Virus record (IMG/VR): IMGVR_UViG_3300001335_000606
Source: an uncultured virus (IMG/VR IMGVR_UViG_3300001335_000606)
Taxonomy: Duplodnaviria > Heunggongvirae > Uroviricota > Caudoviricetes
Direction: 5' to 3' (one strand)
Length of the DNA stretch: 60,376 nucleotides
The notes beneath the pieces are model-generated. The model saw only the letters and a list, made by a program, of their open reading frames with translations, searched no databases and was not told the DNA's origin. Position 1 is the first letter of the stretch, and every line of letters starts with the position of its first letter. The position numbers and the translations under genes were made by a program. Of the stretch, positions 1 through 60,376 are shown one piece after another.

Positions 1-26
1 TGTTCCTTTGTTTATATTCTACTTAT

Positions 27-50
27 ATTATAACTTAAAATTTGAAAATA
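27..50 (-). promoter_or_regulatory. Putative promoter (T-tract + GTTATAAT) for a gene beyond the left window edge
   Basis: Reverse complement reads TATTTTCAAATTTTAAGTTATAAT, followed by an AAGGA SD-like motif at the edge; same motif recurs before other gene starts. Confidence 0.55.
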
Positions 51-57
51 ATTCTTT

Positions 58-1071
58 TTAATTTTGAAATCTCTAATTAATAATCTAATAATCAATGGCT
101 TGAACTCCATATTTACGACGTACACCCATTTTCTTTATTCCATTTTTCTTTCTTAAAAAGATCTTTCTATATTTGCTAAACTAACAAAAACAATTCTGAA
201 TATTCGACAATGAAAGATTTCTATAAGAAGCAGGTAAGTCGTACATTAACTATTCAAACCCTGTATGCTAATACTCACGCAACCATTTGTCTAAATTGTC
301 TTTTACATAATAAACAAATTTGTATCTTTTCTTTCTTGGTATATTGGGGCAAAGATAATCTACACCTGCTAATGCTCCATTACCTAAATATACAAGTTCA
401 TTCTAAGTTATTGCTGTCTAAGGACAATAAGTAATATCAACATAAATTTGATAGGCTAAAAAGTTTCCAATACCTTGCTGATTAGAAATTGCTTTAAACA
501 CCTGTTCAGCATTATTGCTTTCTAATCCTTCCTTGAATGTCTAAAATTCTCTTGAATGATAAAATTTCCACATTCTGTAAAAGGGCATAAATACAATAGG
601 GGTATCTTTATCATCACCTACATGCTTTCCCAAAACTCCACTATTCATATATGCCCCTCTATGCAATTTAGCATTCTACTAAATAAATGGAGAATAATAG
701 TCCATTATTTCTTTAAAATCTTTCTTAAGAAGGGATTCTTTTATTGGAAATTTAAACCTTAAGAAGGTCGCAGGTTGATTAAATATTCTGAACCAAAAAC
801 AATTACAAGCTTTTTCATATATGTTTAACTAGTCATTATAACAAATATGTTTCAATACAAATTTTGTGACCCTATCATGCAATCTTCTTACATTTGTAAA
901 TGAATATGTTTGTAATATGGGATCATTCGTCCAAGGCGGGTCTAATTTTTTTATATCTTTCTTCAAATGTATTTTATATCGTTCGACAATCCAATATAAA
1001 AACATTTTCAATGCCTACTAATCGAGATTCTACTAAATTAAAGATAATATGTCTGCATATTTTTCCGTCAC
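58..1071 (-). CDS. Alpha-glutamyl/putrescinyl thymine pyrophosphorylase clade 1-like (aGPT-Pplase1) DNA base-modification protein
   Basis: TAG read-through gives ~337 aa from GTG to TAA; motifs FLYWIVERYKI..PPWTNDPILQTYSFTNVRRLHDRVT, GIGNFLAYQIYVD, NIQNCFC*FSKY. Confidence 0.8.
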
Positions 1072-1076
1072 ATTAA

Positions 1077-1469
1077 TCAATCCAAATCTCTCATTCTTCT
1101 ATAACAGTTTAATATCAATTGTTTTAATCTCCCTTGGGACTAGCTTTTAGATTTTAGATGTTTAAGTTTCTTGATCTTCTACGGTGTAAACTAAAAGGTA
1201 ATTTGTGTAATATTCAATTCTACTTGTTTAATATCAAATATACCATAGTTCTACAACATATCAAGTAAAAGAAATGTGTCTTCTTCTCTAGTCCCAAAGG
1301 AAAAACTTATATAAGTGGTCTTAACTTTTGCACCGAAATTTGATAGTTTATATACCATCTAATCATGCTATAAATTGTACCCTCCAAGTTTGTTTAAAAA
1401 CTAATTTAAAAAAAAGTTAAAGAATTTTTGTTTGTAATTTGTCGATATACGCTAATATGCACTTTGCAA
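1077..1469 (-). CDS. Hypothetical protein (130 aa)
   Basis: GAGGT SD, TTG start, open through TAGs to TGA, fills the gap between neighbours. Confidence 0.6.
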
Positions 1470-1484
1470 GGTGTAACCTCTTTA

Positions 1485-1718
1485 TTAATCGTTTAAAATC
1501 ATTTTTTGATATGGCTTGCTTTTAATATTCTCATTAATAAATGTCCCCTTTGATGGAGCACTAATTAGATCCTTCCATTCTTTTTCTGTAACATTGTCGT
1601 AACGATACTGATTTCCACCTTTGTATTCAACAATAAGCTCTTGCTTTTCTGTGGAATACCAAAGTGTTTGAATGTGAGATGATTCAAATGAATCAAATTT
1701 TTCAAATGTTGTTTCCAT
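1485..1718 (-). CDS. KTSC domain protein (no TAG codons)
   Basis: SSHIQTLWYS..LIVEYKGGNQYRYDNV..LISAPSKGTFINENIK pattern; AGGAG SD. Confidence 0.85.
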   Translation of the reverse strand: METTFEKFDSFESSHIQTLWYSTEKQELIVEYKGGNQYRYDNVTEKEWKDLISAPSKGTFINENIKSKPYQKMILND

Positions 1719-1751
1719 GATTATTTCTCCTGTATTTTTGATACTACTTAA

Positions 1752-1775
1752 ATTATAACTTACTTTGAAAAAATG
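1752..1775 (-). promoter_or_regulatory. Putative promoter (T-tract + GTTATAAT) of the leftward KTSC operon
   Basis: Reverse complement CATTTTTTCAAAGTAAGTTATAAT about 33 nt upstream of the KTSC ATG. Confidence 0.6.
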
Positions 1776-1889
1776 TTGTATTTTTTATTTGAACATTTTT
1801 TTTAAATATTTTTTTCAATTCATCTATAATTACAATTAGTGGTGCCAAAATGGGCTACAAAAAATAATTGCTCTAGGAGGATTATTATT

Positions 1890-2399: not shown

Positions 2400-2423
2400 A
2401 AAAAATCTAATGTGAATAATTAA

Positions 2424-2456: not shown

Positions 2457-2482
2457 AAATAACATAACAAGAGGAGAACAAT

Positions 2483-3860: not shown

Positions 3861-3874
3861 GGAACTTAAAACGC

Positions 3875-6800
3875 ATGACAATTGAAGATTAGAAATTAAA
3901 TCGCCAGATCAAAGATTTTGCCTAGGATATAGAAGATATTTAGGATGACATATAGTCTATAAAAGAAAATTCTAACGAATTAAATTATTCTATTTCAAGA
4001 GTAAACAAAAGAGTATCAGAATGGCAAAAGGGTGTAGAGCAGGTTTCTAGATAGATTGGCAATATTAAAAGTGACGTAATTGATTATGCAGCATAGCTTG
4101 TAAGAATAAAACAATCTTATAAATAGTTAGGAAAAACAGGAAAATAGTGGTTATCTTCTGTAAATTATTCCCAAATTTATGAAAAGGCGACAAAAGCATT
4201 AACATAGCATAAAGGATTGTTCCATTCAGCATTCAGAGAAGTTAATAAAACTATGATAAACATGGCGAAGAATGCTTCTAAAATGGGTACTTATGGATTT
4301 GCAGATGTTACACAAGAATTAAAATCGATAGACTATTAGCTTCTTGATATATAGAAAACAATTAAATCAATGTAGTTATCAGATAATAATCTTGTTTCAG
4401 AAGAGGAGATAAAGAAACTAAGAGAAACTCAATCCTTGCTTATTGATCAAAGAAATCACCTTTATGATGTTAATAAGTTACAAGTATTGTTAGATGCAAA
4501 ATTGTAGGTTGCAAATAAATAGTTAGGCAAAATGGGGGAAAAATTAAATACTGTTAAATAGGGTTTTTCTTCAACTCTGGACTTTATATCAAGTATAGGT
4601 ATATAGTTACCAGGCTTTAGAGATGCCTTAACCAAATTAGATTTTAGTTAGGTTTTTGCTAAATTAGGACCCAAGATCAGTTAGACTACATTTGCTTTAT
4701 CTGTAGGTCTAAAAAATGCAGCGAAGGGTGGATAGAAGCACTTTGGTAAAATGCTAAAAGCATTAGGAGTAGGTCTCAAATCATTAGTTGCATCAATTGC
4801 TTTTGCTATTGCTACTATTGCGTTTATCGCAGTAGCAGCTGTATTTGCTTTAATAGGGGGTCTTGTACTGGCTGCCATACAAAGAGGTTAGGAATTAAAA
4901 AGAATTGCTCTAGGTGTTCAATCATCTGCAAATGCTTTAACTGGATAGTCTGTTAAATTTTCTTAGATTTATTCAACTTTAGGTGGTTAGCTTGGTGGAG
5001 AAAAAGCAGCGGAGTTATATAATACAATGAGGAATTTAAGGGATGTTACAGTATAGACTGCTAAAGAGGTTCAATTGTTATAGCGTGGTTTTGCTGTAAG
5101 TGCTTCGCAATCTTCTGCCATGCTACAAAATATGCGTTATAATTATGGCATGACAGAAGAATCTAGTAATAAATTAGCTACAATGGTTGCCCAATTTGCA
5201 GTTATGCACAAAATACAACCTACTAAAATCTTTGAAGAAATGGCTAATCTTAGCTCACAGGTGTTAACATATTTTGGTGATAGTCCTGAACATTTGGTTA
5301 AAAGCTTATTCTTTGCCAGAAAATTAAATTTAACAATATAGGATATGGCAAGTGCCGCGGAAAGTTTAAGTGATATAGAAAACACAATAGCGAAATCTTT
5401 ATAGGTTCAAGCTTTAACAGGAAAGCGTATAGATGTTGAATAGATTTTAAGAATGCAGTATGAAGGAGATACTGAAGGGGCGGTTGCCAAATTGGTTGAT
5501 ACCTTCGGAGAAAGTTTTGATAAGATGCATTTTACTCAAAAGAAAGCCGTTGCTGAACTTGTAGGTATGGATGTTCAAGCTTTTTCAAATGCAGCGAATT
5601 CTATAAAACAAACTGGCAAAACTGCTGAAGAATCTTTACAAGATCTTGGTACTTCAGTTAAAAAATCCATGGATGAATCAGAAGCAGGTTTAACAAAGGT
5701 TGCTACTAGCGCATACGGTCTTTAGACACCTCTTGAAGGAGTCAATAGAGAAATACAAAACGCAATATACTCAGGATTCAAAAAAGTTGTTGATTGGGTT
5801 TAGGATAATGCACCTAGAATCATTCCAGTAATATAGCGTATATCAAATGCTCTTGGATAGCTTGTGATTAAAGGATTAAACTGGTTATCAAAGCCTGAAA
5901 ATGTGAGTAAAATATAGAAATTTGTTGACACATTATTAACAGGGTTTTAGAGAGTACTGAAAGTTATTCCCGATATAGTTTCCTTTATTACTAAATTTAT
6001 ATCTGGTATTTACAAATTGTCTGGTGGAGGAGTTATGGGAGTTCTGGCCGTAGGAGCGGCATTTGTTGCAATTACACAACCTATAACGACAATATCTCTT
6101 TTATTAAGTGGAATCAAAAAATTGGGAATACTTAAAGGATTGGGATCATTAGTTGGATTTGGAGGTTTAAGCGGAGTTGGGACTTTAGCAAAAAGTATGG
6201 GTAGTTTTTCAACAAAACAAATTGCAGCTGGATTCGCAGGGAAGGCATCCAAGGATGCATTAGCAGGAGCGGGAAAAGCAACAATGGGGTTGGCAAAAGG
6301 ATTATCTGCAGTAGCTGGATTAGCAGCCCCAGTAGCAATTGCTATAGGTGCAACTTATGGTATTGTTAAAGTCGCAGATTATTTTTCTAAAGCGGAAGTT
6401 GCAACTCGCAAATACAAGAAAGAAATTGCTAAAACATTACCTTTGCTGGATTCCCAAATAAGATTAAAGAGTTTGCAAAATCAAAAAGCATAGGATGAAA
6501 TAAATAGTTTGCAAAATGCAATTCAAACTCAAAAAGATTATGCACATCGCACTAATTTAACAAAGATAGAACAAGATAAGTTAGCAGATTCATATAACAC
6601 TTTAATACAAGCATATCCAGATCTGAAATCAGCAGCGGACGGATATAAATTATCAATGTCAGGTATTGCTCAAGCTACAGAAAATACAAGAGAGAAGATT
6701 TAGGACTTAATTTGGGCACAATATGAATTAGAAAAATTACAGGTTAAACAAGGATCTATAAATCTTGCAAAAACTATGACTGAAGATAAGGATTATAAAA

Positions 6801-7429
6801 ACATGTTTCGTCAGTATAGCTTATCTGGTTCCTATGAAACTATTTTAAGAGATAAGGATTATAAAAACATGTTTCGTCAGTATAGCTTATCTGGTTCCTA
6901 TGAAACTATTTTAAGATGGTTAACCGAAGGAGAAGTTCGTTCTGCATTAACCAAGATGAAAGATATTAAGCCTGCAAATTTAAATGCGAACCAAGAACTA
7001 TTATGGCAAACATTAGAAACTAATTTAGAAATATTTAGCATGCAATAGAAATTTGCAAGAGAAGCGCGTAATAAATCACTACGAATGATAGCTCCGCCAC
7101 TAACAGATGAACAGTAGAAAGCACAGTAGAAAGCAAAACAAGAAATAAATGAAGACTTAGTATCAGTACGTGGTGGAATATATCCTTCCGCAGAGGGTGG
7201 TATAGCAACAGCACCTGTTGGTGCTTGGGTTGCTTAGGCTGGATAGTCGGAAGCAATTATTCCTCTTTCGGATTTATCTCATGTTTCTGGTGTTGATAAG
7301 GTTTTGGCAACTTTGGAAAAGAAAGAGAATATGTCAAATAAACCTATTAATATAACATTGAATATTGACGGAAGAAAGGTTGCTGAAATTTTAACTAAAC
7401 ATACAACACCTTCAACAGCATTAGCGTAA
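3875..7429 (+). CDS. Tail tape measure protein (~1184 aa)
   Basis: Five ORF-track fragments share one frame and join by TAG read-through; helical, Ala/Gly-rich hydrophobic stretches; C-terminal VA*AG*SEAIIPL and LNIDGRKV motifs. Confidence 0.85.
6785..6916 (+). repeat. Perfect 66-bp in-frame tandem duplication in tape measure gene
   Basis: DKDYKNMFRQYSLSGSYETILR encoded twice with identical nucleotides. Confidence 0.95.
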
Positions 7430-14836: not shown

Positions 14837-15964
14837 ATGGCAAAAAGTAAGCAAATTAATTCTTAGAAAGTTGATATGAAGAAACTTGTGAAGGAATTAA
14901 GAAAACATCAAGATCACTAGGGTGTTATGTTGGCTGAGGATATAGGTTAGCCTCCATTTTATTTAAGTACTGGCGATGATGTCTTGGATTTGTATATTTC
15001 GAATACAAAGCATGGAGGTGTAGCTGGAGGTAGAATTACAGAAATATCAGGATTATAGCAAAGTGGTAAGAGTTTGCTCTGTGCTCATTTAGTTAAATCT
15101 TGCCAGCAATTAGGAGGCATTCCTATTATAATAGATACCTAGGCTGCGACTAGCTGGAAATTTCTTCAAGCTATCGGTGTTGATATTGAGAATGTAATCT
15201 ATTATAATAATTTAGGTACAATTTAGAAAATACATAAGGTGACAGAGTAGTTAATGCATTCTGTTAGATTGTAGATGCCTGACACACCTATGCTTATTGT
15301 AGTGGATAGTATAACCGCTGCATCAACCTAGAAAGAATTATAGAATAAAGAGTATTAGAACAAAGGATATCTCGCTGCATTAAAAGCAAAAATGAATAGT
15401 GAAGCTTTAAGAAAGTTGGCTATAATGACGGCAAGGCAAAATGTAGCATTAGTCTATACATCCCAAGTAAGAGTTAAAATGGATGTTGCTAATCCATATA
15501 TGGATCCATATGAAAGCTCTAGCGGAGGGAAAGCTTTACAATTTTATGCTTCAACTCGAGTAAGATTACAAAAGAAATCAAAGCAAAAACAAAAAATTCA
15601 TGGCGTTTAGACTGTTGTAGGTATACAGGTTAAAGCCAGATTAGATAAATCTAGGCTTGGAGCATCTAATAGAGATTGCTAGTTTACAGTTTACTACCAT
15701 GCAGGTATAGATAACTATACAAATTGGTTGAAGGTTTTAAAAGATTACAAAGTTATAGATGGTAAAGGTACTAAGAATATTCCTTGGGTTGTTAAATTTG
15801 AAGGTAAGTAGATAACTATCCATGGGAACTTTTATGACGCTATTAGAAAAGATGAAAAGTTAAGAGAGCAAATATATGATATTATAGCGTAGTTATTAAT
15901 TCTTAAATATCGTCCCATAGAAGAAGTTTAGCAACTTGAAACAATAGAATAGTAGGAAGGTTGA
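14837..15964 (+). CDS. recA: RecA/UvsX recombinase
   Basis: GRITEISGL*QSGKS Walker A, IIDT*AA catalytic Glu, IVVDS Walker B, SGGKALQFYASTRVRL. Confidence 0.95.

Positions 15965-20043: not shown

Positions 20044-20057
<14 letters not shown>
18645..20057 (+). CDS. Replicative DnaB/gp41-like helicase
   Basis: APPGIGKS Walker A, YYAL*M catalytic Glu, IIVDH, PVWSASQ, IKNRHG. Confidence 0.93.
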
Positions 20058-21669
<1,612 letters not shown>

Positions 21670-22213: not shown

Positions 22214-22425
22214 GTATAATGGTGCATATAGATGATTCAATTAATTTGGAATTAATTGGGCAAAGATTTTTGTGGTATATGACTAAAAAATATGTTCTGT
22301 TTTAGACACCTTCTGTTTATACCAAAAAGATGATATAGAAATGTCTAAATTAGGTATTGGATATGGAATTTAATGTAAGATTGAGTGAGAATAAGATTAC
22401 ATATAGGGGGATAGGGCAGAAATGA
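22210..22425 (+). CDS. Small hypothetical protein
   Basis: ATGA overlaps at both ends. Confidence 0.55.
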
Positions 22426-24194
22426 ATGATTTTCAGATTGAAATTTGGAAAAACAATTATAAAGCACCTAAAGATGAGACCATTTAGGATACATTTTTAA
22501 GAGTATCCAAAGCTGTCGCATCAGTGGAAAAGGATTAGGAATCAAGAAAAGTCAGTTAGGATTTGTTTTTTAAGGCGTTATCAGAATGGAAGTTTATTCC
22601 AGGCGGTAGAATTATTGCGAATGCAGGAGTAGGCAAGAGAGATAAAGCGACCTTGTATAATTGCTATGTCTATCATCCTTATGATTTCGGAATAAAAGAT
22701 ATAGATAGCATGGATGGTATTTTTTAGTCCTTAAAAACTTCTGCTAAAATATTAGCAAGTTAGGGAGGATTAGGCATTAATGCAACATTTATTAGACCTA
22801 ATGGTAGCTATATTAGGGGAACAGGTGCAAGGACTCCAGGCGTTTTAAAGTTTTTAGAACTTTGGGATAAAGCAAGTTAGGTTATTACGATGGGTTCTAA
22901 TAAGGTTATGAAAGACAAATATTCAGATGTACAGAAGAAAAAAATAAGAAAAGGTGCGCAAATTGCCGTCTTGGATATTTCGCATTCCGAAATCAAGGAT
23001 TTTATCACCGTAAAACAAACTTCTAATAGATTAACTAAATTCAATCTATCTGTTCTTATTCCGGATAGATTTATGAATGCTGTCAAAAATGACGAAATGT
23101 GGAAACTTTGTTTTCCCGACGTAGATTATTAGAAGTATAAATAGGAATGGGATGGGGATTTAGAAAATTGGATAGTTAAAGATAAACCTATTGTAGTAAC
23201 GGAAGAACTACCTGCCAGAGAATTATGGGATTTGATTATGGTTTCTACATATAACCGAAATTAGCCAGGCGTGTTGTTTTATGATACCATTAATCAATTA
23301 AACCCTGTTAGTTATTGTTAGAATATATTGACCACGAACCCTTGCGGAGAAATAGCTATGCCGTCTAATGTTTGCAATTTGGGTTCTCTAAATCTTGTTA
23401 AGTTTTATAAAGATGGAGAATTTGATTGGAAGGAATTTGAACAAATAATAAAAATTGGTGTCTGTTTTCTAGATAATGTGTCAGATTTTTCTTATGTCCC
23501 AATTAAACAATATTAGAAAAAAATTCTGGAGAAGCGTAGAATTGGATTAGGAATAATGGGTCTAAGCTCCCTATTAATGATGATGGGATTACGATTTGGT
23601 TCACCTTAGGCCATAGAATTTGTAGATAAACTCTTTAAATTTAAGTGTGAAACTTAGTTACTTACATCAGCATTTTTGGGTAAAATCAGAGGATCATTTA
23701 AATCATTTGATGATGAAAAATATTTTTCCACACTTTGGTGGTTTGATTTGCCCATTTCCTATAGAGTCAAAAGATAGATTTAGAATTTAGGTACCATGCG
23801 TAATAGCGTTCACGCCAGTGTGGCTCCCACGGGGAATTGTGTTGTTGGTTCTACAAGGATAATGACATAGGAAGGTGTTTTGTCTATTAAAAAGATTGCA
23901 GAATAGAATCGTGTGTTTAAATCAAAAAACAAAAAACAATGGTTCATCCCTATTAAATCTTTGCGTGTGTATACTTTAAATGGCTTAAAGAGAATTGTTG
24001 GAATTTATAATAACGATGTTACAAATAATTGTTCCATAACAACGGAAACTGGAAAAAAAATAATTGGGACAAATTAGCATAAGATATTGATTAAAATAAA
24101 TGATAAACAAGCTATTTGGAAGAAATTGTCAGAATTGAAAATTGGAGAAAAAATATTGGTTAAAAAGAAAGTGGAGGAAGTGTTCAATGAATGA
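22422..24194 (+). CDS. nrdJ: Class II ribonucleotide reductase, N-terminal part, fused to split-intein N-fragment
   Basis: FIPGGRIIANAG, LYNCYV, N*PGVLF, TTNPCGEI, CNLGSLNL, RRIGLGIMG, SVAPTGN then intein block A; ends TGA. Confidence 0.92.
23838..24191 (+). mobile_element. Split intein N-fragment (118 aa) of NrdJ
   Basis: Starts CVVGSTRIMT; block B GTN*HKIL; LSELKIGEKI; basic tail then TGA. Confidence 0.88.
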
Positions 24195-25506
24195 AGTTGT
24201 GAACATTAATATTAATGATTTTGATTAGGAAATTATAATGAATATATATCTTAAGAAGAAACATACCTACGACATATAGGTTTAGGATGCACATCATTAT
24301 ATTTTGGAAAATGGAATTGTCAGCCATAATTCTTCTATATTCGCTGGCCAGGTATCAAATGGTATTGAACCTGTATTTATGAAGGAATATACTCGTTGGG
24401 TCGTAATGACGGATTAGTAGAAGCAATCACTGTAGTAGAGACATTATTCTATATAGTATGAAAGTAAACCAGATAGTGTTTAGGTTTAGGAACAGTAGTA
24501 TCAAAAAATTCCCAATCCTCAATTGGGATAGTGGTGGTAGACTTGTGTATTTAAATTTGCTGAAAGAGGTAATGAACAAATCCTTAGGGGAGAAATTGAC
24601 GGTGTCATCTATGAAATTGATAAAAATCGTGGATTAATTAAACCTATGTAGGTTATGGATTATGGATGGAAATATGTTAAAGAACATTAGTTGAATGATT
24701 CGGGTGTAGTTTAGATTACCGATTTAAGTGTTGATGACCATATAAATATGTTAGCAACTTCCGCTAAATACATTAATCAAAATCAATCTAAAACTATTAA
24801 TATTCCCAAGGATTACAAGTATTAGGATTTCAAGGAAGTCTATTTTAAAGCATGGTAGAAGAAAATTAAGGGTGTTACAACATATAGAGATGGAACAATG
24901 ACTGCTGTAATTTAGAAAAAAAGTAAAAATAAACACAATGCCAGAGAATTAGAATAGTTGTTTACAGAGAAGAATGGTACCGTAATTTTAAGTGATGTCA
25001 AAATTCCTGATGTTTCCTACGCTTTGCAATATAAAATTAAAGATAAATATAAGAAAAAATGGTATTTCACTCTTTCATTTGCAGACAAAAGTTTAACCAA
25101 ACCATTTGCTTTGTTTATTAGAACAAATAATAGATAGTCTACTTAGGTCACGGATTTAGTAATTAAAGCCATGGAAGATTTGTTGTTGGCTAAAGGAATT
25201 AAGGAATAGTTAATATTGGAGCAAAAAGAAAAATATTCTAACCAAACAAATGTTGATAAGATTGGTAGAGCTATAGGTATGGCGTTGCGTCATAATATTC
25301 CTATCGTTGATATTGTTGAAACATTAGAAAAATACAGTGATGGACTTTCTACCTTGATATTTCATATTAAAAAGGTTTTATCTGAATATATTAAAGATGG
25401 AACACGAATTGAAAATAGAACATGCTCACAATGTGGAAGTGAAAGTTTGGTTTATCAAGGGGGTTGTGTTACTTGCATAAATTGCGGAAATTCAAAATGT
25501 ACTTAA
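24187..25506 (+). CDS. nrdJ: Split-intein C-fragment (48 aa) fused to NrdJ C-terminal part
   Basis: Own GGAGG SD and ATG in a different frame; TYDI*V*DAHHYILENGIVSHN followed by SSIFAGQVSNGIEPVF, SKTINIP, KGVTTYRDG, terminal Zn-ribbon with GNSKC. Confidence 0.92.
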
Positions 25507-25514
25507 AAAAAAGC

Positions 25515-25542
25515 TTTTCTTTTTTTAAAAACGGGTTATAAT
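25515..25542 (+). promoter_or_regulatory. Putative early promoter (T-tract + GGTTATAAT)
   Basis: TTTTCTTTTTTTAAAAACGGGTTATAAT directly ahead of a TAG-free three-gene cluster. Confidence 0.7.
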
Positions 25543-25575
25543 ATAATAAAGAGGTTATATAACAAGGAGTTAAAA

Positions 25576-25863
25576 ATGAAAAAAGTTGCAGACACCCACT
25601 ATCGTCCCTTTCACTTGAAGAAGGCGAGCAAAAACCGAGGCTGGATCGGGCACACTTACATGATTTCAGATGGTCAATGGGAAAGGCTGAAAGACAAGCC
25701 ATATGCTTCCAAGTGGGCAATTTCCAGCATCGGTGCTGGTTATAATTGTGTCTTCCGCAATATCCGCAGAATGACCTTTGCAGAAATCGAAGACGGACTT
25801 GAGTATGGCCTCCCCGAGGAAGCCAGAGAGGAATATTACAAAGCAGGATGGGAAAGAGCATGA
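25576..25863 (+). CDS. Hypothetical protein, TAG-free
   Basis: AAGGAG SD; intact in the standard code; higher GC than flanks. Confidence 0.8.
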   Translation: MKKVADTHYRPFHLKKASKNRGWIGHTYMISDGQWERLKDKPYASKWAISSIGAGYNCVFRNIRRMTFAEIEDGLEYGLPEEAREEYYKAGWERA

Positions 25864-26102
25864 AATTCAATGAGAAAGAAGACATTTGGCCATATTTTGG
25901 AGATACGTATAAGGTATATGTTCCAAAAGCTTTAATAACCGAATTTGAAGATTGGGCGAAGAAGAACAAAATAGATATTAAAATTTCGGCAACATATAAT
26001 TATAGTCATAGAAAAAACTTTGTCGCCAGAGATTATATAGTTCATAAAGATCATAAAACTTTGATTAAAAGATGGCTTAAGAAATCTTATAAAGGAATTT
26101 AA
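25860..26102 (+). CDS. Hypothetical protein, TAG-free
   Basis: ATGA overlap with upstream gene; ends TAA. Confidence 0.75.
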   Translation: MKFNEKEDIWPYFGDTYKVYVPKALITEFEDWAKKNKIDIKISATYNYSHRKNFVARDYIVHKDHKTLIKRWLKKSYKGI

Positions 26103-26106: not shown

Positions 26107-26889
26107 ATGGCAAATAGATTAAACCCAAGTAATTCAACAAAATCCCTAATAAACAAGTGCAACCCCTTATCCGAAGAAGAAGTAAGAGTATGGCTTGAAG
26201 AATATATGAGGAAAAAATCCCAAAAAGCAGCGACAGCTTTGCTCAATAGTGTTACAAAGATTTTTGCCTCGGAAATTTATAAAAACGAACGAAAATTTCT
26301 TAAAACGATTCCAGATGCTACCTTTGATGATATTTTTAACGAGATGGCACTTATGTTTCTTAAGGGTTTAAGTCAAAATAAGTTTGATCCCGACAAATCC
26401 AAACTAGACACTTGGGCATATTGGGCCGTAATGCCTCTAGTTAGAAATCCTGTAAGGGTTATGGGTAGCAAATTTGCAAGCAGCCATACCCATGTGGACA
26501 TAAACAAACCTCATGGGCAAGATGGCGGTACTATAGCTAATGTGTTGCCTGATACATCTGTAGATTTAGAAAAGGATTACGAAGCAGGAGAAAAGCACAG
26601 AGAACTACAAAAGGCTATAAGTAAACTTAATCGCAAAGATCAAGAAATTATTAAAAGCCTATTTGGTTTCATTCCTGTTAAAAAAGATTGGCAATCCAAA
26701 ACTGGTAAGATAAATGCAAGTTCCATAGCCAGAGGAGAAGGTGTTTCGCCTAATCTTATGAGAAAGAGAATTGCGGATATTTTGCAACAACTTCGTAAAG
26801 AATTGAAATAGTCAAAGTTCGATAGATATTTTTAGTTGGGTTTATTAATATAGAGATATAGTAAAGTAAGGTTTGTTAAAAATATATAA
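26107..26889 (+). CDS. Sigma-70 family RNA polymerase sigma factor (234 aa to first TAG; 260 aa with read-through)
   Basis: Region 2-like DDIFNEMALMFLK..KFDPDKSKLDTWAYW; region 4-like ISKLNRKDQEIIKSLFG..SSIARGEGVSPNLMRKR..ILQQLR. Confidence 0.8.
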
Positions 26890-27922: not shown

Positions 27923-28432
27923 ATGAATTATAGTTTGACAAGAAAGACAAAGCAACCCAGCAGGGGTCATAATGGTGATGCAGGCATCGATATTTATGTT
28001 CCATAGTTTGATGATAAAGATTTTATATTAGCGGTATATTAGTTAAACAGACCTGATTCGTTTTTCATGGAGACAAGCGAAAGAAAATTATATATAATGC
28101 CACATAAAAGAATAAAATTACCAACAGGTGTGTATTTCAATATACCAAAGAATAATATGTTGCTAGTATTGGAAAAAACTAGTGTTCCTAATAAAACAGG
28201 ATTGATTAGCGGAGCTCGTGTGATAGATGAAAATTATCAAGGTGAATTTATTGCTTCAATAATTAATACTTCGGATCAGCAAGCTTATTTGCAGCCAGGG
28301 CAAAAGTTTATTCAGGTGGTATTAGTACCACTTTATTAGGATAGGGAATTATAGCAAACATAGTTTGAAGACCTTTATCCAGAGAAAACTACTCGTGGAT
28401 AGGGTTCATTTGGATCAACTGGGCATTTTTGA
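27923..28432 (+). CDS. dut: Trimeric dUTPase
   Basis: GDAGIDI, VIDENYQGE, KFIQVV, RG*GSFGSTG. Confidence 0.92.
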
Positions 28433-28879: not shown

Positions 28880-30622
28880 ATGGAAGTTTCAAGAATTTCC
28901 ACCTTTATTAAAAATGGTAGAGATTATATAAGAATATTTGGTTATAATTAGAACGGATAGCCTGTAAGGAAACTTACACCAGTTCAGAATTATATTTTTG
29001 TTGAAGAGAAAGATTTAAAGAAATTAGGAAAATCCGTATAGATTCAGACAGAATAGTATATATCCTATGATAATCATATAAGTTCGAAAAAATTACGTAA
29101 GGTTATTCTTAAAGGTGCCAGAACCTCTTTTGTACCAAAACCATTGCAAAAAATAAGTTATCAAAGTGATATATCATTAGAAACTAAATATATGCTAGAC
29201 GAGGGCTTGGAATTTTCACGTAAAAGACATATAGCCTTCTATGATATTGAAACTTATTACGATTTTGAAAATGATCCTGAAAGCAACAGTGTAGATCGTG
29301 CCGATTCCCCTATTACATCTATTGCATTTTATTCCAATTTATTAAAAACATATTTCATTTTAGCGTGGCATCCTTCTATAGAAACTGGTGATGATCCGTT
29401 TATTATTGAATAGAAAGGTGATAAGCAATTCTATTATTGTGATTCAGAAGCTACCGTGATTCAAACCTTTTGTGAATTAATAAAAGTTCTAAATGTAGAT
29501 ATCATTACAGGGTGGTTTTCGCATGGATACGATTTACCTTACATTTTGAAGCGTTGTGAAAAACTTTTTGGTTCCATGAATTTAATATCCCCTCTTGAAA
29601 ATGTTTGGATGGGTAATAGAAAGTTTGGGGATGAATACAAGATTAGAATTTCTGGATTAGATACTGTAGATATGATGCAAGGGGTCGGGAAGTTTAATTA
29701 TAAATTGCAAAATAACAAACTCGATACCGCAGCGGAAATGATTTTGGGTTAGAAACATAAAAAATTAAAAACTGCAACATGGCGAGATTGGGAAGATAAT
29801 TTTCAGGGGTTCTTGAAATATGTTGCGAGAGATGTAGAAATCTTGCAATTAATAGACAAAAAACTCAAGGTTTTCGAATTTCTTGTGCAATAGCAAATCC
29901 TTTCAGGAATAACTTCTTTAACTGATATTATGTCTGTTACCCGCCTGATAGATGCTTTATTGATAAAAAGATATTGGGGAGTATATGTGTTTCCTAATAA
30001 CTTAAGAGCTGAACGAGTTAATTTTATGGGAGCAATAACAATAACACCTAAATAGCCTGGAGTTCATCAAAATGTAGCTGTTATGGATTATGCTTCTCTT
30101 TATCCAACTACTATTATGTCTTATAACATTAGTCCTGAGACATTTTTATTTTCAAAGACACAATTAGGTGAAGAAGAATTTGAAAAGCAACTTAAATTTT
30201 TGCAGAAGAACGATATAAAGTATATAGATACGGGTTAGTCTGATTAGATGTTTGGAAAGCGTTACATATTTTTATCTCATGATTAGCATGCAGGAGTTTT
30301 ACCCGAAATCTCCCGTGAACTATATTTGATGCGTAAGGATTTGAAAAGAGAAGCTAAAAAAGGTAAAACTGCTGATTAGAGATTAGTAGCGGATAAAAAA
30401 CAATATGCTATCAAAATAATTCTTAATAGTATATATGGAGCCACAGGGTTTGCTCAATTTAGATTATTTGTTCCTGAATGTGCCGATGCGATAACTTTTT
30501 GGGGCAGAACTGCTGTTAAATTTGCTATGAATAATCTAGATCCTTATGGCAAGGTACTCTACGGTGACACTGACAGTGTTGGATAGAACAGTAATATTAG
30601 ATATAGAATTAAGCAAAAATAA
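28880..30622 (+). CDS. polB: Family B DNA polymerase, N-terminal part, ending in a 15-aa split-intein N-fragment
   Basis: Exo I FYDIET, Exo II GWFSHGYDLPYI, motif A MDYASLYPT, motif B KIILNSIYG, motif C YGDTD then SVG*NSNIRYRIKQK-TAA. Confidence 0.93.
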
Positions 30623-30636
30623 TATGATGTGTTTTG

Positions 30637-30690
30637 AATTGTCTCAGTAATTAGTATTAAGACACTACGGTGTTCCCATAGGAGACAATT
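30637..30690 (+). promoter_or_regulatory. RNA hairpin occluding the SD of the endonuclease gene
   Basis: AATTGTCTC (30637-45) is the exact reverse complement of GAGACAATT (30682-90); inner GACAC-TACG-GTGTT hairpin. Confidence 0.7.
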
Positions 30691-31671
30691 ATGAAAGAAT
30701 ATGTAATTTGCAAATAGTGTGGAAAGAAATTTAAACAGATCACTCACAAACACACTAAAGTTCATGGATTGACCACTAAGCAATATTGTTAGAAATATAA
30801 CTTAAATCCCGGTTAGCTATTATCTGATTCTACAAGATAGAAATCTAAAGTAACTTTGTAGAATATGATGTTATTGTATGGGTAGGAAGAAGGAACAAAA
30901 AGGTTTAAGGAATACAGAAATAAACAAGCTTACACCAATTCTTTAGAATACAAGAAATAGAAATATGGTTGGACTGAAGAATAGTTTAATGAATATAACA
31001 AGGGAAGAGCTGTAACATTATAGTTATCCATTAAACGCCATGGATTATAGAAGGGAACTAAATTGTTTTAGGAATATTGTAATAAACAAGCTTATGCTGG
31101 TTGCAAAATATAGTATTTTATCTAGAAATATGGAAAGATTGAAGGATAGAAAATATTTAAATAGATCGGTAAGCAAAAAGCTATAACATTAGAAAATATG
31201 ATTAGGGTTCATGGGTAGAAATTAGGAAAATAGGTTTATTACAAATGGTTGGGAAAACAATCTAAAACAGGATTTGGAAAGTCTAAAATTTCTCAATAGT
31301 GTTTTAAAGAAATCTCTAGATTATTGTATAGAAATGATTTAAAATTTCGTGAAAACGGAGGGGAAAAGTATTTCTATATTGATGGAAAAGTTTATTATGT
31401 TGATTTATATGACCCATTAACAGGAAAGGTTATTGAATTTTATGGTTCATATTGGCATGCAGATCCCAAATCATATACTCCTAAAGATGTTGTTAATTAT
31501 CCATCGGATATAAAATTATTGGCTTAGAATATATGGCAGAAAGATTAGAAAAGGATAAACATATTGAAAGAAAACACAGATGTTATTTAGGTGTTGGTTA
31601 TTTGGGAAAATGATTATATTAATAACAAGGCAGAAGTTGTAAAGAACTGCATTTAGTTTTTAAGGAGATAA
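30691..31671 (+). CDS. Free-standing homing endonuclease, Vsr/DUF559-like, with N-terminal Zn finger
   Basis: CK*CGKKFKQITHKHTKVH, KYG..EG repeats, VDLYD..KVIEFYGSYWHADP, IWQKD, VLVIWENDY; sits between the polB halves. Confidence 0.82.
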
Positions 31672-31672
31672 A

Positions 31673-32887
31673 ATGACAATTAATAGTTGCACTATCAAGT
31701 GCTTGTTTGACACAATGGCTAAAGAGATTTTTGTTACTTAGGATAACAGATATATTGGAACTCTACCAAATATAGAATTAGAGTATTATGATGAAATAGT
31801 AGGTTAGGTTAAATGGGGCTAGGTTGAATTTATTTAGAAGCATTTTATTGATAAACCTATGTTCAAGATATCATTTAAAAGTGGTGATTATGTTGAAATT
31901 ACAGAAGATCATTCTTTAGTTGTTAAAAGAGATAATAAATTGATATAGACAAAAGTCTATTAGCTTTAGAATGGTGATTAGTTTTTCACGATTAATGGAT
32001 GGGTAGAAATTGAAACTATAGTTCCATTAGAAAGACATGCTAATTGGGTTTATGATATTCAAATGAAAGATAATCCTCATACCTTTTTTGCGCACGGCGT
32101 TTTAGTTCACAATTCTGTATTTTTAAAACTTTCCAAATCAAAATAGGATACTATAAAATTTCTGGAAATATTCAATAAAGAGATTTTATTAAATGGCTTG
32201 ATAAAAAAGTTCAATCCTTTTGTTAATATTGATTATTTTCTTTATGAATTATAGTATTAGAAAGATTTGGATTATATTTATTTCAGTGATAGAAAGAAGC
32301 GATATTATGCTATTGAAAATACAGGAGAGAAGTATGTTCATGGATTGAATATTATCCATAAGGACACTCCAAAATTTATAAAGGAACTATTGGATTAGTT
32401 ATGCGAAAAAGCGGTAAAGAATGGAATAGTTTTAGAAGATTTGAAGGAAACTTTTTAGAAACTTAAAACAGCTGATTACAAAAATATTGCTGTTCATAAA
32501 ACCTTTACAAAAAAGTTTTCCCAATATAATAAAATGATTCCTCAACATGTTGCTGGTGCTTTATACGCAAATTAGCATTTAAATTTGAAGATTAAGCATT
32601 CGGATGTGGTATTTCTTTTTTACATAAATTCCTTTTGCGAACCTGATATAAAAGTTAAAGATAGAAAAAATGTTATTTGTTTAAGAGAATAGGATTTTGG
32701 TGTAATTAAGGAGAGTGGAAAATTTGAAATAGATTATGTCCAGTTAATGGAAAAACAAATTATTCAACCTCTTCGTGAATTTGATAAAATACCTATTGTA
32801 GAACAAACCATAAACGAATGGTGCAAATTAATGGAAGATAATTATAGATTTTCCAAAATTAAAGGTTATGTATTTAAGAAGAGGTGA
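31673..32887 (+). CDS. polB: Split-intein C-fragment (147 aa) fused to PolB C-terminal part
   Basis: AAGGAG SD; block B VEITEDHSL, block F/G WVYDIQM..FFAHGVLVHN then SVF; L*Y*K, KKRYY, PQHVAGA. Confidence 0.92.
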
Positions 32888-55465: not shown

Positions 55466-55789
55466 ATGAAAGTTTACACCACACTACCTAAACCCGAAGA
55501 TTTGAACGAGGGAGAATATAAAGTTCTTCTTGCTTGTGCAAAAAACATCGATCATAACACGGGGATCGAATTTGGTTATGCTGATGAAGTGAAGGTTGAA
55601 GGACTTTCGAAGCACCAGATTGCGGGATATATTTCTCAGCTTTCTCAGAAGCGTTACATCACTATCGACGATGAATGTCAGCAGATGTCCTTTATGGACA
55701 AATCGGTTCTTCAGTTCGATAATCATGGGTTCTTGACTGTTCATAATTATACCAGAAAAGAACTTCTTGAAGGAAAGAGAGGTTGGTAA
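55466..55789 (+). CDS. Putative winged-helix DNA-binding protein, TAG-free
   Basis: LNEGEYKVL..GLSKHQIAGYISQLSQKRYITI. Confidence 0.75.
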   Translation: MKVYTTLPKPEDLNEGEYKVLLACAKNIDHNTGIEFGYADEVKVEGLSKHQIAGYISQLSQKRYITIDDECQQMSFMDKSVLQFDNHGFLTVHNYTRKELLEGKRGW

Positions 55790-56304
55790 TGAACGAAGTA
55801 AGACCTTATACATTGGTAGAAAAAACTTCCAAACCATACTTTCCAAAATTGGAAGGTGGCTTGTATATGGGATCCATTAAAATTGATACTGAAAAAATGG
55901 AAAATCGCAAATATGATCTGTATAGTTTTTCTTATGGATTGGTTGTTTGCTTTGGTGAAATTTGGGATACCTTTTGTGGTATACAGCATTGGGATCATCC
56001 CGCAATGTGGGAAGCCATCAAGAGAGCGGTTGACCGTGGAATTATAACTCCCGATATGAATGTTTTTCAATTAGTACCGCCACTTAAAGAAATGTCAGAA
56101 GGAGGTAAGTTTGATGTGGAACCTCCACTTATGGGGTTCTTTAATACAATCCCTTGTCTCTGGGACATTGTTACTGGAGATGTTGATGATCCTACCGTGC
56201 TTATTACAGAAGTTCCTTCTGAAAATGTAGTGGAGGTTATCGATGGGTATTACAGGAATGGAATAAATGTTTGGGGAATAGCAAGGGAAAGGGAGAAAAT
56301 ATGA
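55789..56304 (+). CDS. Hypothetical protein, TAG-free
   Basis: TAATG overlap; intact in standard code. Confidence 0.8.
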   Translation: MNEVRPYTLVEKTSKPYFPKLEGGLYMGSIKIDTEKMENRKYDLYSFSYGLVVCFGEIWDTFCGIQHWDHPAMWEAIKRAVDRGIITPDMNVFQLVPPLKEMSEGGKFDVEPPLMGFFNTIPCLWDIVTGDVDDPTVLITEVPSENVVEVIDGYYRNGINVWGIAREREKI

Positions 56305-57527: not shown

Positions 57528-57530
57528 ATA

Positions 57531-57791
57531 ATGTTTGAATATACTTAGGAACAATTAAAAGACATAATATAGAATTTAGAAGAAACATTACAAAATAAAT
57601 AGAATTATATCAGAATTTTATAGGATTCTTTAGATATTGCCCAACAATTGTGTGAAGAATTAAGAATAAAATCAGATAGATTACAAGAAGAATTAGATTA
57701 GAGGAAAGATAAAGAAACTCCTACACTTTACTATAGAATTTATACTTCACCTCCCCATAAAATTAATTGGATATTTGACCCTAGAAGATGA
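57531..57791 (+). CDS. Coiled-coil hypothetical protein
   Basis: GAGGTG SD; heptad pattern. Confidence 0.65.
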
Positions 57792-58030
57792 TTATGGACA
57801 CCCTTACTGCTATTCTAATATTAGGCAAATGGAAAAGTTAGAAACCTTTCAAATTCATGTATTTCTAGAATTGGTAGGGATAGATTATTAAAGTTTAGGT
57901 AATCGGATAGATTGAAGATTTATAGGGTCTAAATGATTAGCATAAAATAACTTGGAATAGTATTATTTAGTAGGATTTTGATAGTGAAAATTACGAATTG
58001 GAAAAACTGTATTGCAAGGACAAAGAATAA
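57788..58030 (+). CDS. Hypothetical protein, very TAG-rich
   Basis: ATGA overlap; open to TAA only with read-through. Confidence 0.55.
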
Positions 58031-58041
58031 TTTAGGGGTGA

Positions 58042-58674
58042 ATTATCAATAATTTAAAAGAAAGAATAATAGAAATTAGGAAAAGTCATGATGATAAGTA
58101 TTATGATCCTATTCAAGAACCTTAGGATCCCATAATATTTGATGGTAACACGAATGGTAAAATTTTTGTGGTCGCCAGGGATTTGGGTTTAGAAGAAGTA
58201 AAGCAGAAAATTCCTCTAATAGGAAAATCGGGTCAGTTATTTAGATCTGGTATTAAATGGTTAAAGGAATATCAAAATTAGGTCTATATAACGAATTTAG
58301 TTCCTTATAAACCCCTTAATAACCAAGTGTTTCCTGCATAGATTCGGAATGACTTTAAATTTCATCTTCTTGAACAATTAAAGTCTGTAAAACCAGACAT
58401 TATTATTACACTTGGACGGTAGTCGTATGAGATGCTTTCATCTTTTAAACCCAATTCTATATTAAATGAAATCAAAAATCATAGATTGGAAATTTATGAT
58501 TATGTTTTTTAGGAAACCTTTTAGACCCCATTTATTGTGGTGCCAATGTGTCACCCATCTTATGTTATTAGAAATGGTGGCAATATTAGTAATGGCGAAG
58601 GTTATAAATATATGGGGAGACAATTTAAACTTATTAAATAGATATTAGACAAAATGACAGAATTTAAGGTGTAA
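58042..58674 (+). CDS. Uracil-DNA glycosylase family 4-like protein, apparent ATT/ATC start
   Basis: FVVARDLGLEE..PLIGKSGQ, YITNLVPYKPLNN, IITLG, PMCHPSY; in-frame TGA at 58039 and no canonical start before the domain. Confidence 0.8.
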
Positions 58675-58701
58675 TAAGATAGTTATGAGGAATATTAATT
58701 T

Positions 58702-59676
58702 ATGAAAAAACAAAAAATTGCTCTTATCACAGGCGTTCACGGGATGGATGGATCCCATCTTTCAGATTATTTATTATCATTAGGATATATTGTTTATGGT
58801 TTGTAGCGTAGATCCACCGTTATATAGAGATAGAATACTAAACATTTATTAAATAATTAGAATTTTCATTTAGTACAAGGTGATTTGTCGGATCAAAATT
58901 CCCTTTCAAGGGTGGTTGCATTATCTGATCCAGATGAAATTTATAATTTGGGCGCCCAATCATTTGTTGCGGAGTCCTTTAGAACTCCATAGCATACCAG
59001 TAATATTACGGGATTAGGTTGTTTAAGAATGTTGGAATCAATAAGAGAATATGATAGTTCCAAACATATTAGATTTTACCAAGCTTCTAGCTCAGAAATG
59101 TTTGGTAAAATGGTCGAATCACCTGCAAATGAATATACACCATTCTATCCTAGAAGTCCTTATGGTGTGGCTAAAGTATTTGCACATTATATGACAAAAA
59201 ACTATCGTGAGTCATATGATATGTATTGTTGTTGCGGAATACTTTTTAATCATGAGAGTGGAAGAAGAGGCAAAGAGTTCGTGACCAGAAAAATAACTTA
59301 TGGAATTAAACAAATTTTGGAAGGCAAAACAGATTACATTGAACTTGGCAATTTAGATGCTAAAAGAGATTGGGGATATGCCCCAAAATATGTCTAGGCA
59401 ATGCATCTAATGCTTCAACAAGAACAACCCGATGATTATGTTGTGGCTACGGGTTAGGAGCATTCCATAAAAGAATTTTTAGATCTTGCCTTTTCATACG
59501 CAGGAATAGATAATTGGTGTAAGCATGTTGTAATAAATCCCAAATATTATAGACCTGCTTAGGTTGATGTACTTTGCGGAAATGCAAGCAAAATCAAAAG
59601 TGTAGGTTGGTAGTATAATATGTCATTTGAAGATTTAGTTCATACAATGATGGATAAATAGTTAGAGAAGAAATGA
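58702..59676 (+). CDS. gmd: GDP-mannose 4,6-dehydratase
   Basis: [57 protein letters not shown]. Confidence 0.95.
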
Positions 59677-59984
59677 AGACTAGAGTATTTAAACTCCCTT
59701 CTAATTGGGTTTCATTTGCTTGGTATGGACTAACTGGCGATATTGTCGAAAAACCTTTGTAGGAAAATTGTTTAAGCAAACAAGGGTTAATTGATGCATA
59801 GGATGAAATGTTATATTGCTGCCCTATAGTTTTGGTTGAAGGAATTGATCGTTAGAATATTATAAAATTTGTCCAGAATATGCATTCCAGGTGGTCTTAT
59901 ATTGTTTGTAAATAGTAGAATTAGCACGACAAAGCACAATTAGATAAATATGCCCATTATTAGGTTCTTGCAACTGGACTTTAA
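59673..59984 (+). CDS. Hypothetical protein, paralogue 1
   Basis: FKLPSNWVSF..RWSYIVCK**N*HDKAQLD. Confidence 0.75.
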
Positions 59985-60004
59985 AAAATAATTGGAGAAC
60001 TAAA

Positions 60005-60331
60005 ATGAAAATAAGAACATTTAAATTACCTTCTGAATGGGTTTCCTTTCATTGGCATCATGTAACGGGATAGATAATGCAGAAGCCTATAGATGGATGT
60101 AATATTTTTGATCAAGAGGAAGTTGATCCAGAGGATATAGTAATACGAGGTCTGCCAATGGTTATAGTAAAGGGGATTAATCCAGAAATTATAACTAGAT
60201 TTATTCAAGAAACTATATTTGGTAATGGCGGAGCAAGGTGGTCATATATTGTTTGTAAATAGTAGAATTAGAATGATAAAGCACAACTAGATATATTTGC
60301 AAAATATTAGGTTGTTTCAAGCGATCTTTAA
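60005..60331 (+). CDS. Hypothetical protein, paralogue 2
   Basis: FKLPSEWVSF..RWSYIVCK**N*NDKAQLD. Confidence 0.75.
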
Positions 60332-60342
60332 GAGGTGAGAAT

Positions 60343-60376
60343 ATGACAGAACTTTCATTGAAATATTGGTTTGTGG
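60343..60376 (+). CDS. Start of a gene truncated by the window edge
   Basis: GAGGTG SD followed by ATG. Confidence 0.5.
   Translation, partial: MTELSLKYWFV

What the first reader, a model, noticed from the sequence alone, without database searches (positions are those of the whole stretch)
1..60376. Phage genetic code with TAG reassigned to glutamate rather than glutamine
Seen: in-frame TAG is frequent in nearly all genes (roughly 30 in GroEL), and genes end in TAA/TGA. TAG occupies conserved Glu positions: RecA IDT*AA (15140, catalytic Glu) and GL*QSGKS (15056); helicase AL*M (19326, catalytic Glu); GroEL A*DI*G (20791, 20800) and AAI**GIVPGGG (21259, 21262); NrdJ *PG (23262); dUTPase RG*G (28400); PolB L*Y*K (32252, 32258); DEAHNL*D (33596); glycosyltransferase G*SFG (40083); Gmd RPA*VD (59560). 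Invariant Gln (Gmd AQS and FYQ, RecA SQVR, helicase ASQ and VQAYGR, nuclease QLLLY) is always CAA/CAG. Established: amber recoding in phages is normally TAG=Gln (table 15); UAG=Glu is known from some eukaryotic nuclear codes. Inference: a TAG-only Glu code in a phage, which I do not know to be described.
Basis: partly seen in the sequence, partly recalled or inferred. Interest (0 to 1): 0.96.

Follow-up and report, generated by a model that had tools for sequence, protein, structure and literature searches.

The report
Phage reading TAG as glutamate
This freshwater phage writes about four in ten of its glutamates with the stop codon TAG, and every comparison I could run says TAG means glutamate here, not the glutamine that published work assumes for such recoded phages.

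Summary
Table 11 gives 4 ORFs of 150 aa or more; reading TAG through gives 44. TAG is 3.6% of codons and occurs in 42 of 43 genes.

The Glu reading is supported by four tests:
- Against standard-code homologs of GroEL, Gmd, RNR and RecA, the consensus at 72 TAG columns is Glu at 41 and Gln at 2.
- A Codetta-like decoder gives Glu +68 nats and Gln -76. All 15 control codons decode canonically.
- Among 11 related recoded contigs, the window's TAG aligns with TAG 353, GAA/GAG 357 and CAA/CAG 52 times.
- Database copies translated with TAG=Gln carry 6-10% Gln and 2-5% Glu. Standard homologs carry 2-3% and 6-10%.

An artefact is unlikely, because relatives from many assemblies share the trait and GAG persists in all frames.

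The decoder was not found. There is no tRNA in the window, in about 190 kb of relatives, or among the tRNAs read in two bins that hold relatives. The mechanism (a Glu-type tRNA-CUA) is therefore inferred.

Six literature searches found no phage TAG=Glu code. Earlier notes of this scan report the same reading in rumen and gut phages on other DNA. This is a separate aquatic lineage in which even replication and sigma-factor genes need TAG.

The parts
1..60376 (.). Phage genome segment in which TAG is a sense codon: 43 genes of 150 aa or more, 42 of them with in-frame TAG. TAA and TGA are the only terminators seen.
   Evidence: phage hallmarks (T4 baseplate, gp32, phage metallopeptidase, PHROG homing endonuclease and sigma factor)
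14837..15964 (+). RecA/UvsX-like recombinase with 18 TAG. TAG 15140 sits at a Glu invariant in 121 of 121 homologs, and TAG 15224 at Glu in 116 of 121.
20044..21669 (+). GroEL with 29 TAG. The consensus of 78 cellular GroELs is Glu at 18 of these columns, 8 of them invariant.
22422..24194 (+). Ribonucleotide reductase N-extein plus the N half of an intein (from Cys at 23838). There are 15 TAG in the first 480 residues, with Glu consensus at 10.
24187..25506 (+). Ribonucleotide reductase second gene: the C half of the intein (to HN at 24330), then the C-extein. It is TAG-rich.
27923..28432 (+). dUTPase. TAG 28400 lies in the C-terminal RG-x-G-FGSTG motif, aligned with Glu (2) or Asp (1) in 3 solved dUTPases.
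26107..26889 (+). Sigma-factor-like gene. It has no TAG in the first 234 codons and 3 TAG in the last 26. That tail is conserved in relatives, two of which have GAR where the window has TAG, so TAG is sense here too.
58702..59676 (+). GDP-mannose 4,6-dehydratase with 10 TAG and Glu consensus at 6. Columns 58990 and 59560 are invariant Glu in 93 of 93 homologs.
55466..56304 (+). Two adjacent genes (107 and 173 aa) with no TAG at all. GC is 0.387 against 0.313 for the window. Probably a recent acquisition written in standard code.
25469..25969 (.). Second TAG-free, GC-richer (0.389) island between the RNR and sigma genes. It has no counterpart in the related loci.
28880..32887 (+). Family B DNA polymerase in two genes, TAG-rich. 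It is interrupted after the DTDS motif by a 1,539-base insert (30577-32115) that holds a homing-endonuclease-like gene and an intein-like domain.

Best explanation
In this phage and its relatives, TAG is an ordinary sense codon translated as glutamate. It supplies about 42% of all Glu positions, in every gene class, while TAA and TGA terminate. That TAG stands for Glu is shown by comparison. How it is decoded is inferred. The most likely route is a tRNA with anticodon CUA and a tRNA-Glu body, encoded elsewhere in the phage genome and charged by the host glutamyl-tRNA synthetase. CUA differs from the Glu anticodon CUC and the Gln anticodon CUG only at position 36. A synthetase that already accepts both (the non-discriminating GluRS of bacteria without GlnRS) could therefore accept it. 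A G1-C72 Glu-type acceptor stem would keep the amidotransferase from converting Glu to Gln. With about 11 TAG per 300-residue protein, host release factor 1 must also be outcompeted or disabled.
For: **Shown**
1. At 72 TAG columns in GroEL, Gmd, RNR and RecA, the consensus of standard-code homologs is E 41, D 7, K 7, Q 2, other 15. Invariant Glu falls at 15140, 22761, 23655, 58990, 59560 and 8 GroEL columns.
2. The decoder over 71 columns gives E +68.1, D -67.9, Q -75.9, K -93.8 nats. All 15 control codons decode canonically.
3. In 28,272 aligned codon pairs with 11 relatives, the window's TAG (n=1064) pairs with TAG 353, GAA 316, GAG 41, CAA 42, CAG 10. TAG's exchange profile matches that of GAA, not CAA.
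4. Clade proteins stored with TAG=Q have Q 6-10% and E 2-5%. Standard homologs have Q 2-3% and E 6-10%.
5. Where cellular GroELs have invariant Gln (20617) or His (20065), the clade alternates TAG and GAA and never uses CAR.
6. The base after TAG is distributed as after other codons.
7. Contigs of two runs from two studies match 15-34 kb with no other letters. Relatives from 11 metagenome contigs and 2 genome bins carry TAG at 3.1-5.5% of codons.

**Inferred**
- Passages of PMC9976931 state that ND-GluRS charges both tRNA-Glu and tRNA-Gln, and that the amidotransferase needs U1-A72 and is blocked by G1-C72.
- Neither bin holding a relative has a GlnRS match over the cut-off.
Against: - **No decoder seen.**
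  - There is no tRNA in the window.
  - There is none in the related pieces.
  - There is no CUA anticodon among 33 of 33 tRNA matches of bin G001 or about 48 of 61 of bin G002.
- **No peptide or RNA evidence.**
- **Non-Glu columns.** 31 of 72 TAG columns have a non-Glu consensus.
- **Gln-like exchange at some sites.** At variable GroEL columns 20287 and 20539, TAG alternates with CAA/CAG as well as GAA.
- **Limits of the method.** Conservation cannot tell pure Glu from a Glu-rich mixture with Gln.
- **Reads not independent.** The runs that hold the window may be its own source.
Confidence: 0.85

Rival explanations
1. Ordinary code 15: TAG is read as glutamine, and the phage proteins tolerate Gln at Glu positions.
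For: This is the only amber meaning reported for phages in the papers read (passages; abstract listing of PMC9523058). Two GroEL TAG columns have a Gln consensus in cells. At two variable columns TAG alternates with CAA/CAG.
Against: - Gln scores -75.9 nats against +68.1 for Glu.
- TAG pairs with Gln codons 52 times of 1064 against 357 for Glu codons.
- It would put Gln at catalytic or invariant Glu in RecA, RNR, Gmd and GroEL.
- It would make these proteins 6-10% Gln and 2-5% Glu.
- At the invariant-Gln GroEL column, the clade uses TAG or GAA and never CAR.
Confidence: 0.03
2. Mixed decoding: a CUA tRNA is glutamylated by a non-discriminating GluRS and partly amidated, so TAG yields Glu with a fraction of Gln.
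For: The indirect Gln pathway passes through Glu-tRNA (PMC9976931 passages). No GlnRS match over the cut-off was found in the two bins that hold relatives. Conservation-based tests cannot exclude a minority residue.
Against: TAG sits at catalytic Glu residues in many essential enzymes, where a sizeable Gln fraction would be costly. TAG's exchange profile is as Glu-like as that of GAA.
Confidence: 0.07
3. Sequencing or assembly artefact that turns GAG into TAG.
For: TAG differs from GAG by one G-to-T change. The DNA is probably hypermodified (5-hmdU kinase gene).
Against: - GAG remains in all three frames (134/197/100) and TAG is enriched in frame (586/389/279).
- TAG mostly pairs with GAA, two changes away.
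- Relatives from 13 other assemblies share the trait.
- Contigs of two runs from two studies are identical to the window.
Confidence: 0.01
4. The phage needs no suppressor of its own because its unknown host already reads TAG as Glu.
For: TAG is used in 42 of 43 genes, including replication and sigma-factor genes, with no early standard-code block. That is the pattern of phages sharing their host's code. No phage tRNA was found.
Against: - Two GC-richer islands are TAG-free, as expected for genes taken from a standard-code pool.
- Bin G001, which holds a relative, has an RF1 gene and ends 34 of 215 long ORFs in TAG.
- Cellular homologs of GroEL, RNR and Gmd show no excess Gln.
- Only a fraction of any clade genome was seen, so a phage tRNA may simply lie elsewhere.
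Confidence: 0.05

Closest known systems
Code-15 (TAG=Gln) alternatively coded phages: crAss-like, Lak, Garnet/Topaz (Borges et al. preprint 10.1101/2021.08.26.457843; PMC8346664; PMC9523058)
   Same: A phage with TAG as a sense codon in many genes. TAA and TGA are kept as stops. Coding density is restored when TAG is read through.
   Different: Here TAG stands for Glu, not Gln. TAG is in replication and sigma-factor genes as well, so there is no standard-code early block. No suppressor tRNA or RF2 gene was seen in the 60 kb. The Borges passages say only TAG to Gln and TGA to Trp were observed. The Lak paper saw some TAG aligned with E but read it as a Q-like change.
Eukaryotic nuclear codes with UAG = Glu (such as the peritrich ciliate code; recalled, from no call)
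   Same: UAG is assigned to glutamate.
   Different: Those codes, as recalled, also reassign UAA and belong to eukaryotic nuclei. Here TAA ends 40 of 58 ORFs and the genome is a phage.
TAG=Glu rumen and gut phages noted earlier in this scan (e1-5954662, e1-5950858, e1-5954678, e1-5750912, e1-5951819; unchecked AI notes)
   Same: They give the same reading of TAG, from the same kind of comparison. Some report a Glu-type CUA tRNA.
   Different: They are other genomes and another habitat. No look-alike stretch of this window is in the scan's index. Those notes describe TAG as kept out of replication genes, whereas here it is not. Here no tRNA was found.
Laboratory amber suppressors built on tRNA-Glu in E. 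coli (recalled, from no call)
   Same: A CUA anticodon on a Glu tRNA body can insert Glu at UAG.
   Different: These are engineered and leaky, in a host with discriminating GluRS and GlnRS. They are not a natural genome-wide code.

Membership tests
Stop-codon-recoded (alternatively coded) phages | One stop codon occurs in frame in many genes, and genes become whole when it is read through | tested here: met
   4 ORFs against 44 ORFs of 150 aa or more; TAG in 42 of 43 genes
Stop-codon-recoded (alternatively coded) phages | Phage-encoded suppressor tRNA with the matching anticodon | tested here: inconclusive
   There is no tRNA in the window or in related pieces. Only part of any clade genome was available.
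Stop-codon-recoded (alternatively coded) phages | Early and replication genes kept in standard code | tested here: not met
   PolB, helicases, RecA, RNR and the sigma factor all hold TAG. Only two small islands are TAG-free.
Genetic code 15 (TAG = Gln) | TAG aligns with Gln in conserved proteins | tested here: not met
   Gln is the consensus at 2 of 72 columns and Glu at 41. Decoder: Q -75.9 against E +68.1 nats.
Genetic code 15 (TAG = Gln) | TAG interchanges with CAA/CAG among relatives | tested here: not met
   52 of 1064 pairs with CAA/CAG against 357 with GAA/GAG
Genetic code 15 (TAG = Gln) | TAA and TGA remain terminators | tested here: met
   TAA 40 and TGA 18 ORF ends; no in-frame TAA or TGA in the 43 genes
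UAG = Glu codes of eukaryotic nuclei (recalled) | UAG at conserved Glu positions | tested here: met
UAG = Glu codes of eukaryotic nuclei (recalled) | UAA reassigned together with UAG | tested here: not met
   TAA is the commonest terminator
Pyrrolysine decoding of UAG | TAG at Lys-like positions and pyl genes nearby | tested here: not met
   K scores -93.8 nats. No Pyl family among 42 proteins scanned against Pfam. The rest of the genome was not seen.

The most novel reading that the evidence does not exclude
TAG is needed in every gene class from the first genes on, and no phage decoder was found. The boldest reading not excluded is that the unknown host itself reads TAG as glutamate. That would be a bacterial genetic code not on record, which the phage simply shares. 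The less bold and far more likely reading is that TAG=Glu is a second natural amber meaning in phages. On that reading it arose apart from the rumen cases and runs on a Glu-type CUA tRNA.
Probability: 0.05. Interest if true: 0.97.

Novelty: new variant of a known kind. Interest (0 to 1): 0.82.

Why it matters
- **Annotation.** Pipelines and databases translate recoded phages with TAG=Gln. The protein database used here does so for this very window. That puts the wrong residue at about 3.6% of positions, including catalytic glutamates, and distorts homology, structure prediction and proteomic searches for a whole clade.
- **Biology.** A second amber meaning shows that which amino acid a phage assigns to a captured stop codon is not fixed by glutaminyl-tRNA synthetase. 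It points to the GluRS/amidotransferase route as an entry point for code change.
- **An open question.** A phage that needs the new codon in its replication and transcription genes must impose its code at once. That questions the idea that recoding mainly serves to delay late genes.

Tried and rejected
**Looking for relatives**
- IMG/VR with the stored GroEL (TAG=Q) found no relative.
- A clade alignment found only ordinary GroELs at 39-47% identity.
- [10 protein letters not shown] pattern found 39 non-recoded phage GroEL loci.
- The TAG-specific pattern found nothing in IMG/VR.
- GenBank phages: best GroEL match is under 44% identity.

**Reaching the rest of the genome**
- No whole genome is held for the window.
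- Metagenome records behind the related loci cannot be searched.

**tRNA hunt**
- Low-GC tRNA-array contigs of bin G002 (with a tmRNA, and a Glu-like tRNA with an irregular anticodon loop) show no homology to the clade and no TAG use.
- A loop-plus-T-arm pattern gave 9 hits in the two bins, no more than its reversed control; the one I read in full (on contig C441) is not a tRNA, and the others I judged only from the matched strings printed.
- Walking beyond Gmd on G002:C26 gave 14 kb of TAG-rich genes with no tRNA and no Pfam family.

**Host**
- A phage-specific protein was found in 1 of 5 genomes of G001's order. In 401 sampled genomes of its phylum, only G001 gave a strong match; one other genome had a marginal hit (E 2.9e-4).
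- No host can be named. Co-binning alone is not evidence.

**Expression**
- No RNA holder is listed.

**Other**
- Runs of X in ORFs of G001 turned out to be masked N stretches, not TAG.
- Scan index: nothing for this genome or its look-alikes.
Full report
**Observation**

Under table 11 the 60,376-base window has only 4 ORFs of 150 aa or more. With TAG read through it has 44, almost all on the + strand. ORFs of 100 aa or more on that strand end in TAA (40) or TGA (18).

In 43 genes (16,206 codons) TAG occurs 586 times (3.6%), in 42 of the 43. The counts for comparison are GAA 670, GAG 134, and 3.0% Gln codons.

Pfam and PHROGs show a phage:
- T4-type baseplate protein, gp32, RecA/UvsX-like recombinase and DnaB-like helicase
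- family B polymerase, class II-like ribonucleotide reductase, dUTPase and GroEL
- glycosyltransferases, Gmd, a sigma factor and a 5-hmdU DNA kinase

**Which amino acid**

The protein database holds this window's GroEL translated with TAG=Gln. The 41 closest GroELs (58-66% identical) and the close relatives of Gmd, RNR and RecA have 6-10% Gln and 2-5% Glu. Standard-code homologs have 2-3% Gln and 6-10% Glu. I therefore used only homologs with normal Gln content.

| Protein | TAG columns | Homologs used | Consensus at TAG columns |
|---|---|---|---|
| GroEL | 29 | 78 | E 18, D 3, Q 2, K 2, other 4 |
| Gmd | 10 | 93 of 120 | E 6, Q 0 |
| RNR | 15 | 99 of 120 | E 10, Q 0 |
| RecA | 18 | 121 of 150 | E 7, K 4, Q 0 |
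| Total | 72 | | E 41, Q 2 |

Invariant Glu falls at 15140 (121/121), 22761 and 23655 (99/99), 58990 and 59560 (93/93), and eight GroEL columns (78/78).

A Codetta-like log-odds decoder was run on these alignments over 71 columns, one gappy column being dropped. It gives E +68.1, D -67.9, Q -75.9 and K -93.8 nats. The same decoder assigns all 15 control codons their canonical residue, CAG by only 0.2 nats.

**Relatives**

The clade is absent from IMG/VR and from GenBank phages as held here. A pattern requiring TAG at an invariant GroEL Glu found the following:
- 11 related contigs among 18 metagenome hits
- 2 related contigs among 10 hits in genome bins
- two further contigs, found later

All of these use TAG at 3.1-5.5% of codons.

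I aligned 28,272 codon pairs from 84 ORF pairs. The window's TAG (n=1064) pairs with TAG 353, GAA 316, GAG 41, GAT 45, CAA 42 and CAG 10. The reverse direction gives the same picture. TAG's exchange profile (TAG .33, E .33, D .06, K .06, Q .05) mirrors that of GAA, not that of CAA (Q .46).

The apparent exceptions turn into support. Where cells have invariant Gln (20617) or His (20065), the clade has TAG or GAA (GAT in two relatives at 20065) and never CAA/CAG.

**Artefact**

- GAG persists in all frames (134/197/100) while TAG is enriched in frame.
- TAG mostly exchanges with GAA, which is two changes away.
- Four runs from two studies hold the stretch. Contigs of two of them, one per study, match 15-34 kb with no other letter, though either may be the source.
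- Thirteen or more other assemblies share the trait.

**Is TAG ever a stop?**

The sigma-factor gene has no TAG for 234 codons and then three in its last 26. That tail is conserved in relatives, two of which have GAR where the window has TAG. So it is translated.

There is no bias in the base after TAG. Only two GC-richer islands (25469-25969 and 55466-56304) lack TAG, and neither has a counterpart in the related loci. These look like recent imports from a standard-code pool.

**Mechanism (inferred)**

No tRNA or other Rfam family is in the window or in the related pieces.

Bin G001 holds a relative on contigs C4 and C51.
- All 33 of its tRNA matches were read, and none has anticodon CUA.
- It has an RF1 gene over the cut-off.
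- It ends 34 of 215 long ORFs in TAG.

In bin G002 about 48 of 61 tRNA matches were read, and only 150 of 299 first-look candidates were scored.

Neither bin has a GlnRS match over the cut-off. Both bins are incomplete, and co-binning does not show a host.

The model rests on passages of PMC9976931. Non-discriminating GluRS charges tRNA-Glu and tRNA-Gln, whose anticodons differ only at position 36, as CUA does from both. The amidotransferase needs U1-A72 and is blocked by G1-C72. A Glu-bodied CUA tRNA would thus deliver Glu.

The density of TAG implies near-complete suppression, and hence some way of sidelining RF1. None was seen.

**Compared with what is known**

- Passages of the Borges preprint state that only TAG to Gln and TGA to Trp were observed in phages whose code differs from the host's.
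- A 2026 jumbo-phage survey scored only codes 11, 15 and two others.
- The Lak paper noted some TAG aligned with E and took it as a Q-like change.
- Six full-text searches found no phage or bacterial TAG=Glu code. Subscription papers and supplements were not covered.
- This scan's own notes report TAG=Glu in rumen and gut phages, some with a Glu-type CUA tRNA. They are unchecked and on other DNA. No look-alike of this window is indexed.

This lineage differs in habitat (aquatic and sediment labels). It also uses TAG in its replication and transcription genes.

**Verdict**

The decoder and any protein-level proof are still missing. This is a new variant of a known kind (stop-codon recoding in phages) with a different amino-acid meaning.

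Noticed in passing
window 30577-32115 (within the PolB genes 28880-32887): A 1,539-base insert directly after the polymerase DTDS motif is absent from contigs of two runs, which join 30576 to 32116 in frame. The insert holds a 15-codon tail with a stop, a homing-endonuclease-like gene (30670-31671, PHROG 22677) and an intein-like domain (CLFDT...VHN, 31700-32113). It looks like a 'fractured gene' with a very short N-side intein piece, polymorphic in the population.
   Followed up: partly
window 23838-24330: The ribonucleotide reductase is encoded as two overlapping genes in different frames. The first ends with about 118 intein-like residues starting at Cys after APTGN. The second starts (ATG 24187) with about 48 residues ending in HN before Ser. 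That is the layout of a naturally split intein.
   Followed up: partly
window 58-1080 (-) and 26901-27638 (+): A 5-hmdU DNA kinase gene (Pfam E 2.4e-46) and a thymidylate-synthase-like gene, together with dUTPase and a UDG-family gene, suggest hypermodified thymidine in the phage DNA.
   Followed up: no
window 25469-25969 and 55466-56304: Two islands with GC 0.39 (window 0.31) and no TAG at all, whereas every other gene uses TAG. Neither has homologs in the related loci. No family was found for their ORFs.
   Followed up: partly
window 7445-9367 and 3875-7429: In-frame protein repeats: a unit of about 32 residues (YIPK.GKPDN...LSPKWLN, followed by two TAG codons) occurs about four times at the start of the 640-aa protein. 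A 22-residue unit is duplicated in tandem in the 1,184-aa tape-measure-like protein.
   Followed up: no
L178 (G002:C167) and L179 (G002:C156) 262-332: Low-GC contigs in a roughly 50%-GC bin carry phage-like tRNA arrays with a tmRNA gene. They also carry a Glu-like tRNA whose anticodon arm is irregular; ARAGORN calls a two-base anticodon. They show no homology to this clade and no TAG use, so they probably belong to another phage.
   Followed up: partly
GroEL 20044-21669: The closest named cellular GroELs (about 51% identical) are from Cloacimonadota. This may reflect the origin of the gene rather than the host.
   Followed up: no
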